A DNA stretch of 64,000 nt from Candidatus Nomurabacteria bacterium (GCA_028286645.1 JAQBRF010000004.1:408942-472941), one strand, 5' to 3'; positions 12,515-59,883 are shown, counted from the first letter of the stretch. A program made the numbers and translations. Notes: generated from the letters alone by a model not told the origin.

Positions 12515-12828
12515 GGTCTCCTTCAAATTTAGTGTGCGTTTCCGCACCCTAAAGAAGAAAATCACCATTTAAGACTGGGTGCGGTTCTGATTGATCCAAG
12601 AAAGTTGTTAGCTGTGCTTCATGATTCCCCCCACATAAAAATGAGCAGATAAATACAGTATAACATATTTGCCCGATATTGTCAATATTGAAAATCCCCT
12701 ATTTATTATGGCCATATTTCGGAATTGGTTAGAAAATAAGATGAGTACAATGCAAAGGAATTTTTTGAGACTAAAACGTACATACGTTGCGTGAGCAAAA
12801 GATTCTCTTAACGGAATAATCGCTTATA

Positions 12829-57496: not shown

Positions 57497-58774
57497 CTAC
57501 TTTAACCTCTTCCTTTGAAAGAAGAATAAGAGACAAACAATGAAAGAAATATTCATTGATATGATCCCATATGCCAAACTAATAAGACCAAGCCCTTGAG
57601 ATTTATAGTAAAAACATACCCCCACGGCAATTGCAGTAGATACTATATTTGAATAAAAAATGCTTTTAGTGTCCTTTGTAGCATTGAATGCTGCAATTGT
57701 ATACCACCCTAATGCATGAAGCGGCATGCTAATAATTATTAATCTAAGTATTGTAATAATGTCGACATTCCTAGGTGTTTTTCCATATAAGAGATTAACA
57801 ACTAGATGCGGGAAATAATAACAAAATCCTGCGAATAAAATGGCCAGAATGAATACTAATCCTGCATTATGAAAAAAAGTCTTTTTAAATCCGACGATAT
57901 CGCCTCTGTCTATATGATCTGCTAGACGTGGCAAACTCCCAGATGAAAAGCTCTGAGATATAACTGTAAGTCCGGCGTCAATTATCTTCTGAGCAAAAAG
58001 ATACACGGTGAGCGCCCCTGCACCGAATAGAGTTGCAAAGCCAGTAAAAAATAGGACGCGTATTTGATTAATTATAAATGATCCAGATCTTGGAACTGAA
58101 ATATGCAAATGTTCCTTAACGAATCCTATCGAAAAATGCTTACGAGTGATTTTGATCGGATGCTTAATAAAAGTAAATGATTGTAAACCGAGATGAAGAG
58201 CGGCACCTATAACTACTCCTATAATAATTCCCAATAATCCCATATGTGGATAAAGAGTTATGATAGAAATTATTATTGATACAGTATAAATAAGCGGAGC
58301 TGTGCAAAATAAAAGAAATTCATTTCTTGCTTGAGCTAAACAAGAAATCAAGGAAGAAAATCCTAATAATATAGGCTGAATTAACAATATCCTCGTAAAG
58401 AAAATATATTTATCTGTTTGGTCTGGTGTAAATCCTGGTACAAAAAATGATGCATAGAAAGGAAGCGTAACAAAAACGATTCCACATATTATAATCATCA
58501 TCATTCCAAAAAAATAAAAGAGCGAATTAAACCTCATTGAAAGTTCTTCTTTATTATTAGAACTTATAGATTTAGATATAAATGGAATAACAGTTCCCGC
58601 CGCCGCAAAAGACAGCATTATCCCTAAGGCCAGGTCTGGAATGCGAAAAGAGGCGTTATATATATCCAGAAGTTGTCCCACCCCGACATTTTGTGCTAAT
58701 AATCTATCTCTTAAAATGCCAAGGAGTTGTGCAATTACTGCAAAAGAAGCAATTATGAAAGAGTATCTAAACAT
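57497..58774 (-). CDS. MurJ/MviN-like lipid II flippase (MOP superfamily), short
   Basis: 425-aa polytopic protein. N-terminal LGILRDRLLAQNVGVGQLLDIYNASFRIPDL matches the MurJ signature (LGF.RD....FG.....DAF..AF.IPNL). Confidence 0.5.
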   Translation of the reverse strand: MFRYSFIIASFAVIAQLLGILRDRLLAQNVGVGQLLDIYNASFRIPDLALGIMLSFAAAGTVIPFISKSISSNNKEELSMRFNSLFYFFGMMMIIICGIVFVTLPFYASFFVPGFTPDQTDKYIFFTRILLIQPILLGFSSLISCLAQARNEFLLFCTAPLIYTVSIIISIITLYPHMGLLGIIIGVVIGAALHLGLQSFTFIKHPIKITRKHFSIGFVKEHLHISVPRSGSFIINQIRVLFFTGFATLFGAGALTVYLFAQKIIDAGLTVISQSFSSGSLPRLADHIDRGDIVGFKKTFFHNAGLVFILAILFAGFCYYFPHLVVNLLYGKTPRNVDIITILRLIIISMPLHALGWYTIAAFNATKDTKSIFYSNIVSTAIAVGVCFYYKSQGLGLISLAYGIISMNISFIVCLLFFFQRKRLK

Positions 58775-58845
58775 AAAATTATACTATCATATTTAAAGAA
58801 AAAGAACTCCTTTCGGAGTTCTTTTTCATATTTGTGGTTCTACCT

Positions 58846-59170
58846 ATAAGCCGGATTCTGTCTTCACTTGCGTGATGTGTAATCATTTATCTGGGATGAC
58901 TGTTACCAATCACCTCAAGCGGCACTCCTGTATTACTACAGGCACGGCCTTGCACACATGTAAGGATTTAGCCGTTTCAATCATGCGTTACCGCATGCAT
59001 CATCCGCATTACTGCGGAGTTCTTTGCTTTCGCTTGGAACGTCTCTGCTCGCACCTCTTAGATTGCTCTAGACGGGTGTTACCCGCTACAATTGAACAAT
59101 TAAATGTTCTGTGTGTCCGGACTTTCCTCCCTGATTGCTCAGAGCAATTACCCAGTAGAACCTCTTTAGA
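58846..59170 (-). ncRNA. rnpB: RNase P RNA (bacterial type)
   Basis: Minus-strand GGAGGAAAGTCCGGACAC (P4 5' strand) and GACAGAATCCGGCTTAT (P4 3' strand). P1 pairing GGTTCTACT/AGGTAGAACC. Promoter TTGTCA-N16-TAATCT upstream. Confidence 0.75.
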
Positions 59171-59225
59171 TTAGCATTTTATTAGCATATTGACAATGTC
59201 GATATAAATGATATGATACAAGAGC

Positions 59226-59346
59226 GGGCTTTCTAGTCAGCTCGTGGAATGTGGTGGCGAATGGTCCACCCCCTAAAAGGTGAGATACCTTAAGTGAGTA
59301 TCTCCGACCTCTTACCGTTTATCGTCTACTAGAGACGATTAGGTAG
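59226..59346 (+). ncRNA. candidate ~120-nt small RNA of unknown class, divergent from rnpB
   Basis: TTGACA(59192-59197)-N16-TATGAT promoter. Ends in nested hairpin GACCTCTTACC...CGTCT-ACTAG-AGACG...GGTAGAGGTC + T6. No ORF with RBS. Confidence 0.3.
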
Positions 59347-59355
59347 AGGTCTTTT

Positions 59356-59883
59356 TTATTCCCCAATCTTCACTTTCGATCCTAAATACACACCATATTT
59401 GTCAGACATCCCCGCCGCTATTTCTAATACATAACTTGCGTCAATTGTGTTTACAAAAGTCTGAGGATTGCTCCTCGGAGCAACACCACTATATGACTCA
59501 GGTGTAACATTTCTCTCAATATGCACGACTACTCCATTTTGATTAATCCAAATTATATCTAAAGAAAAGAGCATATCCTTCATCCAAAAACCATATTTAC
59601 CTGGATAATCGAATATAAATAACATTCCTTCATTTTCTCGGAGTCCCGCCCTCCCAGATAATCCTAACTCGCGTGAAGCGGGAGTATCGGCCACTTCTGC
59701 AACAATGGCCCCTTGCGGTAGCGTTATAGTTACATCATGCCTTACGAATTTATTTATTACTTCAGCATTACAATTTTTCTCTAAAAAACATTTATTACCG
59801 AACCATCCGCTGGTAATTAAAAGAATTAAAAACGCGACAGCAAGTCCGATTTTTTCATTTTTTGAGAATTTTATTTTACGCAT
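59356..59883 (-). CDS. DUF192-family (COG1430) secreted protein
   Basis: Signal peptide, then A.V.TP.SRELGLSGRAGL..NEGMLFIFD......FWMKDMLFSLDIIWIN..GVVV typical of DUF192. Confidence 0.65.
   Translation of the reverse strand: MRKIKFSKNEKIGLAVAFLILLITSGWFGNKCFLEKNCNAEVINKFVRHDVTITLPQGAIVAEVADTPASRELGLSGRAGLRENEGMLFIFDYPGKYGFWMKDMLFSLDIIWINQNGVVVHIERNVTPESYSGVAPRSNPQTFVNTIDASYVLEIAAGMSDKYGVYLGSKVKIGE

What the first reader, a model, noticed from the sequence alone, without database searches (positions are those of the whole stretch)
59171..59346. Divergent promoters sharing one palindromic -35 between rnpB and an unassigned small transcript
- ATTGACAAT at 59191-59199 reads TTGACA on the plus strand and TTGTCA on the minus strand.
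- Minus strand: TTGTCA-N16-TAATCT precedes the RNase P RNA 5' end by ~7 nt.
- Plus strand: TTGACA-N16-TATGAT would start a transcript at ~59226.
- That transcript runs through GC-rich structured sequence into a nested hairpin terminator plus T6 at 59295-59346.
- No ORF with an RBS is present, apart from a 14-codon MWWRMVHPLKGEIP with no SD.
- The ~120-nt RNA does not show the SRP domain-IV motifs that I tested for. It may be a novel small RNA, or a highly divergent SRP or 6S RNA.
Basis: partly seen in the sequence, partly recalled or inferred. Interest (0 to 1): 0.5.

Follow-up and report, generated by a model that had tools for sequence, protein, structure and literature searches.

The report
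Orphan small RNA gene beside rnpB
Next to the RNase P RNA gene of an uncultured Nomurabacteria (CPR) bacterium sits a short non-coding unit of about 134 nt with a very strong predicted promoter and a clear terminator; it matches no known RNA family, occurs in only a few close relatives, and is an ordinary though well-supported orphan small-RNA candidate of unknown function.

Summary
The sequence features are real, with small coordinate errors. rnpB (58831-59163, minus strand) and a plus-strand unit are transcribed back to back. Their -35 hexamers overlap in the palindrome ATTGACAAT (59189-59197).

- **Promoter:** the plus-strand promoter is TTGACA-N16-TGaTATGAT. It is one of three TG-extended sites matching at least 11 of 12 positions in 64 kb, against 0.08 expected by chance.
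- **Transcript:** about 134 nt (59224-59357), with three hairpins and then a nested terminator followed by T6. The T-run overlaps the stop codon of the convergent DUF192 gene.
- **Known families:** no Rfam family (SRP, 6S and all others) matches at E<=10, and ARAGORN finds no tmRNA. The 14-codon ORF is not conserved.
- **Relatives:** only two other lineages (L082/L083 and L086) carry the unit at this position. All keep TTGACA-N16/17-TGnTAnnnT and the T-run terminator, but the body is 60-140 nt and cannot be aligned.
- **Structure:** window and L082 share the hairpin layout, with a few compensatory changes and a covarying loop-loop complementarity.
- **Absence:** most related genomes lack the unit.

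Verdict: this is a lineage-restricted, fast-evolving orphan small RNA (confidence about 0.5). It is not a divergent SRP or 6S RNA. Its function is unknown, and expression cannot be tested here.

The parts
58831..59163 (-). RNase P RNA gene (rnpB, bacterial type A)
   Evidence: Rfam RF00010, 126.5 bits, full-length model match
58798..58827 (-). rnpB terminator, a perfect 13-bp palindromic hairpin flanked by an A-run and a T-run
   Evidence: I1
59168..59196 (-). rnpB promoter: -35 TTGTCA (59196->59191), 17-nt spacer, TGc + TAATCT (59176->59168)
   Evidence: Read. Relatives have a promoter at the same position relative to the rnpB 5' end.
59189..59197 (.). 9-nt palindrome ATTGACAAT containing both -35 hexamers, which overlap by 5 bp with a 1-bp offset
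   Evidence: The same TTGACAA/TTGTCAA sharing is seen in L082 and L086.
59190..59217 (+). Small-RNA promoter: TTGACA, N16, TG-extended -10 TGaTATGAT
   Evidence: 11 of 12 plus TG. It is one of 3 such TG sites in 64 kb against 0.08 expected. L082 has TTGACA-N16-TGcTATACT and L086 has TTGACA-N17-TGtTATTAT.
59224..59357 (+). Predicted non-coding transcript of about 134 nt. The start is inferred as 7 nt after the -10.
   Evidence: Inference from promoter and terminator. No Rfam hit. The body is 52% GC against 39% for the window.
59224..59245 (+). Hairpin H1 (GCGGGCU / AGCUCGU, loop UUCUAGUC). The motif AGUCAGCU is shared with L082.
   Evidence: MFE fold. Against L082 there is one compensatory G-C to C-G change and one G.U to A-U change (read from the structures).
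59253..59270 (+). Hairpin H2
   Evidence: MFE fold. L082 has a larger hairpin at the same position with a different sequence.
59282..59304 (+). Hairpin H3. On the minus strand it is followed by ACCUUUUA, so it may also serve as a weak terminator for DUF192.
   Evidence: MFE folds of both strands. Reading it as a minus-strand terminator is inference by eye.
59306..59357 (+). Nested intrinsic terminator: outer stem 59306-16 / 59342-51, inner hairpin 59321-39 with loop ACUAG (59328-32), and T6 at 59352-57
   Evidence: The T-run lies on the plus strand in the window, L082 and L086. The inner loop is complementary to the H1 loop CUAGU at 59233-37.
59356..59883 (-). Convergent DUF192 gene. Its stop codon (59356-58) overlaps the last two T of the small-RNA T-run.
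   Evidence: ORF list; Pfam PF02643

Best explanation
This is an independently transcribed, intrinsically terminated, non-coding small RNA gene of about 134 nt (59224-59357, + strand). It belongs to a Candidatus Nomurabacteria (CPR/Paceibacteria) genome.

**Layout**
- The gene sits back to back with rnpB. The two -35 hexamers occupy the same palindrome, so the sigma-factor contacts of the two promoters probably exclude each other (inferred).
- It sits tail to tail with the DUF192 gene.

**What is shown**
- A near-consensus extended -10 promoter.
- A plus-strand terminator.
- No coding potential.
- No match to any curated RNA family.
- Promoter and terminator are kept at the same position in two other lineages.

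**What is inferred**
- The RNA product itself matters. It would be a compact folded RNA with three 5' hairpins and a kissing contact between the H1 loop and the inner terminator loop.
- It would act as a lineage-specific regulatory RNA, by base pairing or protein binding.

Its target is unknown. It is an orphan, fast-evolving small RNA, not a housekeeping RNA.
For: **Promoter**
- 11 of 12 plus TG. TG-extended sites of this quality occur 3 times in 64 kb against 0.08 expected.

**Terminator and fold**
- The fold is -49.8 kcal/mol, z=-3.8.

**Orthologous units**
- L082/L083 (DUF192 75% identical) and L086 carry the unit.
- They keep TTGACA-N16/17-TGnTAnnnT and a T6-7 terminator, although the spacers and bodies cannot be aligned.

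**L082 argues against a pure insulator role**
- In L082, DUF192 has acquired its own perfect terminator.
- A relic of the old DUF192 3' end (..VEIGE*) still abuts the small-RNA terminator (read by eye).
- The small-RNA unit is retained intact even though it is no longer needed to end DUF192 transcription.

**Shared structure between window and L082**
- Both have the H1-H2-H3-nested-terminator layout.
- H1 and the inner terminator hairpin each show a compensatory change.
- The 5-nt loop-loop complementarity changes from CUAGU:ACUAG to CCAGU:ACUGG, with P about 0.01 per genome.

**Composition and coding**
- The body is 52% GC, against 25% in the promoter region and 39% in the window.
- There is no ORF of 30 aa or more. 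The 14-codon ORF has no counterpart in L082 or L086.
Against: - There is no expression data of any kind.
- Only three lineages carry the unit.
- Most related genomes have DUF192 abutting the rnpB promoter, or have rnpB inverted, with no such unit.
- Primary sequence is not conserved. nhmmer finds nothing outside the same organism.
- Length ranges from about 60 to 140 nt.
- Without the terminator, the body is not clearly more stable than shuffled sequence (z=-1.5 in the window, -2.4 in L082).
- In L082 the opposite strand folds better, -35.3 against -26.3 kcal/mol.
- The covariation rests on a single pair of sequences and was found post hoc.
Confidence: 0.5

Rival explanations
1. The unit is transcribed but the RNA product has no function. 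What selection keeps is the promoter and the terminator.
- A strong promoter sharing the -35 with rnpB would tune rnpB by competing for polymerase, or couple to it through supercoiling.
- Convergent transcription plus the terminator would shield the rnpB promoter from read-through out of the typA-HEAT-DUF192 operon.
For: - Promoter and terminator are conserved, while the body is not alignable and varies from 60 to 140 nt.
- In L086 the transcript is little more than two mini-hairpins and a terminator.
- The same shared palindromic -35 with rnpB occurs in other CPR contigs. There the partner is usually a protein gene, or a promoter followed directly by a terminator (L094/96/102, L097, L100, L105, L101).
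- Relatives without the unit have no terminator between DUF192 and rnpB (L009, L106).
Against: - In L082, DUF192 has its own strong terminator, yet the unit persists.
- The body is GC-rich and keeps its hairpin layout and loop-loop complementarity between window and L082. A functionless spacer should not need these.
Confidence: 0.28
2. There is no plus-strand RNA. The region is only the structured 3' UTR and terminator region of the minus-strand DUF192 gene, or a leader of an rnpB precursor. The plus-strand promoter match is an accident of the palindromic rnpB -35 in AT-rich DNA.
For: - The minus strand folds about as well as the plus strand (z=-4.1), and better in L082.
- Hairpin H3 is followed by a short U-run on the minus strand in the window and L082 (by eye).
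- Generic promoter-like hits are not enriched in the region: 11 found against 8.3 +/- 2.9 expected.
Against: - The T6-7 run follows the terminator hairpin on the plus strand in all three genomes. On the minus strand the hairpin has an A-run in front and no U-run behind.
- The TGnTAnnnT extended -10 sits at 16-17 nt from TTGACA in three genomes whose spacers cannot be aligned.
- TG-extended near-consensus sites are about 40 times rarer by chance than observed.
Confidence: 0.12
3. It is a highly divergent member of a universal housekeeping RNA family, such as SRP (4.5S) RNA or 6S RNA.
For: - Promoter strength and the position next to another housekeeping RNA gene fit this idea.
- No SRP, 6S or tmRNA gene is found elsewhere in the 64-kb window.
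- There are superficial strings: CUAGUCAG..GGAA..GGCGAAUGG in the window and ACCAGUCAG..GAAGCGGGCUAAAG in L082. From my own knowledge of E. coli 4.5S RNA, they recall its domain IV.
Against: - No Rfam hit at E<=10 in three orthologues, and no tmRNA.
- The GGAA is not closed by a helix, and there is no 5'/3' closing stem.
- Length varies 60-140 nt, and the unit is absent from the same position in most relatives.
- A universal RNA would not evolve faster than the neighbouring protein genes.
- The window is only about 12% of a 514-kb contig, so a canonical gene can lie elsewhere.
Confidence: 0.03
4. It is a decayed inverted partial duplicate of rnpB (promoter, 5' end and 3' end), left over from the rnpB inversions seen among relatives.
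For: - rnpB orientation flips between close relatives.
- The small RNA contains TAGGTAGA, identical to the rnpB 3' P1 strand (I10).
- Its 3' end GAGGTCTTTTT resembles the rnpB terminator half (I4).
- A GAA(A/U)G(G)UCC-like string lies 34-39 nt from the start in all three, as in rnpB (by eye).
Against: - Local alignment of small RNA against rnpB is no better than shuffles (p=0.26-0.6).
- Anchored arm-to-arm alignment gives z of 0.8 or less.
- A profile of 27 rnpB promoter and 5' regions does not detect the small-RNA arms.
- The Rfam RNase P model has no plus-strand hit.
Confidence: 0.07

Closest known systems
Generic bacterial intergenic small RNAs with their own sigma-70 promoter and a Rho-independent terminator (orphan, species-restricted sRNAs)
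   Same: - It has its own strong promoter.
- It is 60-140 nt long and non-coding.
- It has 5' hairpins followed by a terminator hairpin and a U-run.
- It evolves quickly and has a narrow phylogenetic range.
- In L086 the only Rfam hits are weak, sub-threshold matches to many unrelated terminator-bearing sRNA and leader families.
   Different: - No target, chaperone or expression is known.
- The terminator is nested and Y-like, with an inner hairpin whose loop is complementary to the 5' hairpin loop.
- It shares its -35 with rnpB.
Bacterial small SRP RNA (4.5S, RF00169) and 6S RNA (RF00013)
   Same: Both are small, presumably abundant, non-coding RNAs from a strong promoter, grouped with housekeeping RNA genes.
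   Different: - There is no covariance-model match.
- It forms four local hairpins, not one long closed hairpin.
- It has no helix-8 motifs and no central bubble.
- It is not conserved across relatives.
Bidirectional promoters caused by DNA-sequence symmetry (shared symmetrical -10 elements, starts about 18 bp apart).
   Same: Divergent transcription arises from one symmetrical promoter element, and compact genomes re-use promoter DNA.
   Different: - Here the -35 is shared (TTGACAA/TTGTCAA), not the -10.
- The two starts lie about 61 bp apart, and each promoter has its own extended -10.
An rnpB-linked RNA of about 80 nt found here in 13 other Paceibacteria species ('fam2', alignment A3, model R1)
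   Same: - It is a small non-coding unit with a TG-extended promoter and a terminator.
- It always lies next to rnpB in the DUF192-rnpB neighbourhood.
- It is absent from Rfam.
   Different: - Its sequence and fold differ: one 5' hairpin and a conserved single-stranded stretch, UUUAUCGUAAACAACAUAAGUGCCGC.
- Model R1 does not hit the window's small RNA.
- It lies on the other side of rnpB.
- It is well conserved, unlike the window's RNA.

Membership tests
Bacterial small SRP RNA (RF00169 / SRP clan) | Match to the family covariance model | tested here: not met
   No SRP hit at E<=10 in window 59100-59450, L082 4200-4620 or L086 600-800. No SRP hit anywhere in the window at E<=0.5.
Bacterial small SRP RNA (RF00169 / SRP clan) | Single extended hairpin closed by 5'/3' pairing, capped by a GNAR tetraloop, with the conserved symmetric and asymmetric loops of helix 8 | tested here: not met
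   The MFE and centroid folds show four independent local hairpins. The only GGAA (59247-59250) lies in an unpaired linker with non-complementary flanks.
Bacterial small SRP RNA (RF00169 / SRP clan) | Universal presence and conservation in related genomes | tested here: not met
   nhmmer detects no sequence match in any other locus, including the 80 related DUF192 loci. By eye, a syntenic unit is present only in L082/L083 and L086. Length varies from 60 to 140 nt.
Bacterial small SRP RNA (RF00169 / SRP clan) | Binding to Ffh | not testable with these tools
   Needs biochemistry.
6S RNA (RF00013) | Match to the covariance model, and a rod of about 180 nt with a large central bubble | tested here: not met
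   No hit at E<=10. The RNA is 134 nt and forms local hairpins only.
tmRNA | tRNA-like domain plus a tag reading frame | tested here: not met
   ARAGORN finds nothing in 58700-59500, and there is no Rfam hit.
Independent intrinsically terminated bacterial sRNA gene (generic kind) | Own promoter | tested here: met
   TTGACA-N16-TGaTATGAT, 11 of 12 plus TG. TG-extended sites occur 3 times against 0.08 expected in 64 kb. The promoter is conserved in L082 and L086. This is a prediction only.
Independent intrinsically terminated bacterial sRNA gene (generic kind) | Rho-independent terminator on the same strand | tested here: met
   Nested hairpin 59306-59351 plus T6. The orientation is the same in L082 and L086.
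Independent intrinsically terminated bacterial sRNA gene (generic kind) | No conserved coding potential | tested here: met
   No ORF of 30 aa or more. The 14-codon ORF lacks a ribosome-binding site and has no counterpart in L082 or L086 (sequences).
Independent intrinsically terminated bacterial sRNA gene (generic kind) | Detectable transcript with defined ends | not testable with these tools
   No transcriptome data are available.
Independent intrinsically terminated bacterial sRNA gene (generic kind) | Structure supported by covariation | tested here: inconclusive
   Only two informative sequences are available. There is one compensatory pair in H1, one in the inner terminator hairpin and one in the loop-loop contact. 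Body z-scores are -1.5 and -2.4.
   cmsearch over the window at E<=10 gives no hit in 59170-59360. The best window hit is the rnpB 3' end plus its terminator, at 24 bits.
Symmetry-driven bidirectional promoter (shared -10 type) | One symmetrical -10 element used in both directions, with starts about 18 bp apart | tested here: not met
   The two -10 elements are separate (59168-59173 and 59212-59217). The shared element is the -35, and the starts lie about 61 bp apart.

The most novel reading that the evidence does not exclude
The small RNA and RNase P RNA form a coupled pair. Because both promoters use the same -35 palindrome, only one can be occupied at a time, which would set the ratio of the two RNAs.
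- The small RNA has a compact kissing-loop fold.
- Its 3' stem carries the same AGGUAGA string as the rnpB P1 strand.
- It could therefore act on RNase P itself, as a decoy, regulator or substrate mimic.

Together with the unrelated but likewise rnpB-linked 'fam2' RNA in other Paceibacteria, this would point to a CPR-specific class of RNase P partner RNAs.
Probability: 0.06. Interest if true: 0.6.

Novelty: new member of a known kind. Interest (0 to 1): 0.3.

Why it matters
- **Small RNAs in CPR bacteria.** CPR/Patescibacteria have tiny genomes and, as far as my two literature searches show, no described small-RNA repertoire. A well-delimited orphan RNA gene with one of the strongest predicted promoters in 64 kb is a concrete candidate for the first regulatory RNAs in this group.
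- **Compact promoter architecture.** One -35 palindrome serves rnpB and a divergent partner. This recurs in other CPR contigs, with small RNAs or protein genes as the partner.
- **Limits.** The RNA itself is lineage-restricted and of unknown function. Its wider importance is modest unless expression and a target are shown.

Tried and rejected
1. **SRP, 6S, tmRNA or any curated family.** Rfam at E<=10 on the window, L082 and L086 regions, Rfam on the whole window at E<=0.5, and ARAGORN all gave nothing relevant.
2. **More orthologues.**
   - A genome-contig scan with MurJ found nothing.
   - The 80 DUF192 loci from GTDB genomes gave no nhmmer hit to the small RNA.
   - Contigs of the closest DUF192 and MurJ homologues yielded only L082/L083 and L086. 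L084, L085, L087 and L106-L108 lack the unit.
   - The metagenome pattern CGGACTTTCCTC..AGAAC..TTGACAA gave 18 CPR loci. They share the -35 arrangement, but none has a homologous RNA.
3. **Same family as the rnpB-linked 'fam2' RNA.** Model R1 does not hit it.
4. **Decayed inverted copy of the rnpB 5' or 3' ends.** Local, anchored and profile alignments are all not significant. The short identities (I4, I10) are kept only as a curiosity.
5. **Relocated murJ promoter after rnpB inversion.** murJ keeps its own TGnTAGTAT promoter in both gene orders. The 16-nt, 75% inverted repeat between the two -10 regions (I2) is what two AT-rich extended -10 promoters would give.
6. **Pairing with rnpB.** The duplex energy is no better than for shuffled sequence.
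7. **Small protein.** The 14-codon ORF is not conserved.
8. **Literature.** Two full-text searches found nothing on CPR small RNAs or rnpB-linked RNAs.

Full report
**Context**

- The DUF192 and MurJ proteins encoded in the window are 100% identical to proteins named JWN37_902 and JWN37_901. These come from a MAG of Candidatus Nomurabacteria, on a 514-kb contig.
- The local gene order on the minus strand is typA/bipA, a HEAT-repeat protein, DUF192 (59356-59883), rnpB (58831-59163), murJ (57497-58774) and lepA.
- The finding concerns the 192 nt between DUF192 and rnpB.

**Check of the observation**

- rnpB is confirmed: RF00010, 126.5 bits, full-length match.
- The palindrome ATTGACAAT is at 59189-59197.
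- On the plus strand, TTGACA (59190-95) is followed after 16 nt by TATGAT (59212-17), with TG two bases upstream. This scores 11 of 12 plus an extended -10 and is the best site in the 2.5-kb scan.
- Over the whole window there are four sites of at least 11/12, against 2.6 expected from a first-order Markov model. Three of them carry the TG, against 0.08 expected. The TG-extended near-consensus promoters of this organism are therefore not chance events, and this is one of them.
- On the minus strand, TTGTCA (59196->59191) is followed after 17 nt (not 16) by TGc-TAATCT (59176->59168). That ends 4 nt before the first base aligned to the RNase P model.
- Related rnpB genes have a -35/-10 pair at the same distance from the conserved 5' end GTTCT. 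The rnpB promoter assignment therefore has comparative support.
- The plus-strand terminator is a nested hairpin at 59306-59351 followed by T6 at 59352-59357.
- The last two T of the T-run overlap the DUF192 stop codon.
- The predicted RNA is 59224-59357. It folds at -49.8 kcal/mol with z=-3.8.
- It contains no ORF of 30 aa or more.

**Known families**

- Rfam 15 with permissive filters at E<=10 reports nothing on the plus strand of 59100-59450.
- The orthologous region of L082 also gives nothing relevant.
- In L086 the only hits are weak, sub-threshold matches to many unrelated terminator-bearing sRNA and leader families.
- The whole window at E<=0.5 holds only rnpB and four tRNAs.
- ARAGORN finds no tmRNA.
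- The fold is four local hairpins, with no closing stem and no helix capped by the single GGAA.
- SRP, 6S and tmRNA are therefore rejected as memberships.

**Relatives**

- Scanning GTDB genomes with a DUF192 alignment gave 80 loci. rnpB is linked to DUF192 in about 45 of them.
- No locus other than the same organism (L001) matches the small RNA by nhmmer.
- Contigs carrying the closest DUF192 and MurJ homologues were then fetched.
  - L082/L083 (DUF192 75% identical) and L086 have the same order: DUF192, small RNA on the opposite strand, then rnpB.
  - L082 has TTGACA-N16-TGcTATACT and L086 has TTGACA-N17-TGtTATTAT. Each shares the TTGACAA/TTGTCAA palindrome with the rnpB -35.
  - Each transcript ends in a hairpin followed by T7 on the small-RNA strand.
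- The promoter spacers and the transcribed bodies cannot be aligned. The transcripts are about 140 nt in L082 and about 60 nt in L086.
- The other relatives fall into two groups.
  - In some, the DUF192 stop codon abuts the rnpB -35 (L009, L106), or only a terminator lies between (L007).
  - In the rest, rnpB is inverted and its promoter sits back to back with the murJ promoter (L002-4, L008, L010, L084, L085, L107).
- A metagenome scan for rnpB genes with a TTGTCAA -35 found 18 further CPR contigs. In these the TTGACA half serves a protein gene (L094/96/102, L097, L100, L105) or a promoter followed directly by a terminator (L101). None has a homologous RNA.
- Two conclusions follow.
  - The shared-palindrome promoter design recurs in CPR.
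  - The RNA itself is confined to a narrow set of lineages and evolves faster than the neighbouring genes.

**Is the product functional?**

Evidence for a functional product:
- The body is 52% GC, against 25% in the promoter region and 39% overall.
- Window and L082 share the order H1, H2, H3, nested terminator.
- H1 keeps its loop end and 3' strand (AGUCAGCU) and shows one G-C to C-G swap.
- The inner terminator hairpin keeps AUCGUC and shows one U-A to C-G swap.
- The H1 loop is complementary over 5 nt to the inner terminator loop in both genomes, through a compensatory change from CUAGU:ACUAG to CCAGU:ACUGG. Shuffled loops reach this in about 1% of trials.
- In L082, DUF192 has acquired its own perfect terminator, and a relic of the old DUF192 3' end (..VEIGE*, read by eye) still abuts the small-RNA terminator. 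The small-RNA unit is nevertheless intact, which argues against a role purely as a DUF192 terminator or insulator.

Evidence against a functional product:
- Without the terminator the body is only weakly more stable than shuffles (z=-1.5 and -2.4).
- In L082 the opposite strand folds better.
- The L086 version is minimal.
- The covariation rests on one pair of sequences, examined post hoc.

**Mechanism**

- The best-supported statement is that this is a real, independently transcribed, terminated, non-coding RNA gene.
- I commit, at about 0.5, to the product being a lineage-specific regulatory or structural small RNA.
- The main rival, at about 0.28, is that only transcription and termination matter. 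That would mean promoter competition or supercoiling coupling with rnpB through the shared -35, and protection of rnpB from read-through.
- A pure minus-strand 3' UTR reading (about 0.12) conflicts with two observations. The T-run is on the plus strand in all three genomes, and the extended -10 is conserved.
- Derivation from an rnpB duplicate (about 0.07) has some short suggestive identities but fails every significance test.
- A divergent SRP or 6S RNA (about 0.03) is essentially excluded.

**Novelty and score**

- This is a new member of a known kind, an orphan bacterial small RNA.
- It is of modest interest, mainly because small RNAs of CPR bacteria appear to be uncharted and because of the shared -35 arrangement with rnpB.
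- Interest: 0.3.

Noticed in passing
L017:4957-5036, L039:4883-4962, L045:4795-4873, L041:7462-7542, L080:4882-4960, L029:4989-5069, L055:4882-4962, L059:7277-7357, L070:4788-4871, L079:4957-5035, L076:4788-4867, L023:7361-7433, L061:6457-6532 (all + strand): A conserved RNA of about 80 nt ('fam2') lies next to rnpB in 13 Paceibacteria species.
- It has a TG-extended promoter.
- It has a 5' hairpin (GUGAG/CUCAC) that shows covariation.
- It has an almost invariant single-stranded stretch, UUUAUCGUAAACAACAUAAGUGCCGC, followed by a terminator.
- It keeps its orientation whether rnpB is co-oriented or inverted.
- Rfam gives only sub-threshold rnk_pseudo hits (28-36 bits against a gathering score of 55).
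- The genes downstream differ between loci, so it is probably a free-standing small RNA.
- Model R1 also weakly matches the rnpB 3' end plus terminator in other genomes.
   Followed up: partly
Loci L002-L011, L084-L086, L106, L107 compared with window 58780-59220: The orientation of rnpB relative to its fixed neighbours DUF192 and murJ flips repeatedly among related Paceibacteria, with roughly 19 loci co-oriented and 14 inverted. murJ keeps its own TGnTAGTAT promoter in both states. In the inverted state the palindromic rnpB terminator serves both DUF192 and rnpB. The window has a weak inverted repeat between the murJ and small-RNA -10 regions (58780-58795 / 59203-59218, 75%) that flanks the segment.
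   Followed up: partly
window 33440-33553 (- strand): This is the only perfect 12/12 promoter in the window, TTGACA-N17-TGcTATAAT. It is followed by a short AT-rich transcript of about 75 nt that ends in a stem (ACCAG...CUGGU) plus T6, upstream of the next ORF. It may be another small RNA or a leader.
   Followed up: no
window 12520-12690 (- strand): A second copy of the ATTGACAAT -35 palindrome sits in a TG-extended 11/12 promoter (TTGACA-N17-TGtTATACT). It drives an untranslated leader of about 150 nt before a GAAGGAG ribosome-binding site and an ATG.
   Followed up: no
L094, L096, L102, L097, L100, L105, L101 (coordinates): In other CPR contigs the rnpB -35 TTGTCAA is likewise shared, as TTGACAA, with a divergent promoter. 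The partner is a small protein gene or, in L101, a promoter followed directly by a terminator. Back-to-back promoters that overlap in the -35 seem to be a recurrent compact design around rnpB in CPR.
   Followed up: partly
L082:4221-4400: The closest relative has a duplicated relic of the DUF192 3' end (..GAGVEIGE*, read by eye) next to the small-RNA terminator. It also has a new perfect 19-bp palindromic terminator directly after the functional DUF192 stop codon. This indicates a recent insertion or rearrangement between DUF192 and the small-RNA unit.
   Followed up: partly
window 58774-58800 (- strand) and the homologous sites in L085 and L084: The murJ -10 (TGaTAGTAT) ends 6 nt before the ATG in the window and in L085. 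This suggests a leaderless or nearly leaderless murJ mRNA in some of these genomes.
   Followed up: no
window 12000-34500: Several stretches reach 60-64% GC in a window that averages 39% (129-nt windows at about 12.3, 22.8, 23.5, 28.8, 29.2, 30.4 and 34.1 kb). The composition is heterogeneous and was not examined further.
   Followed up: no
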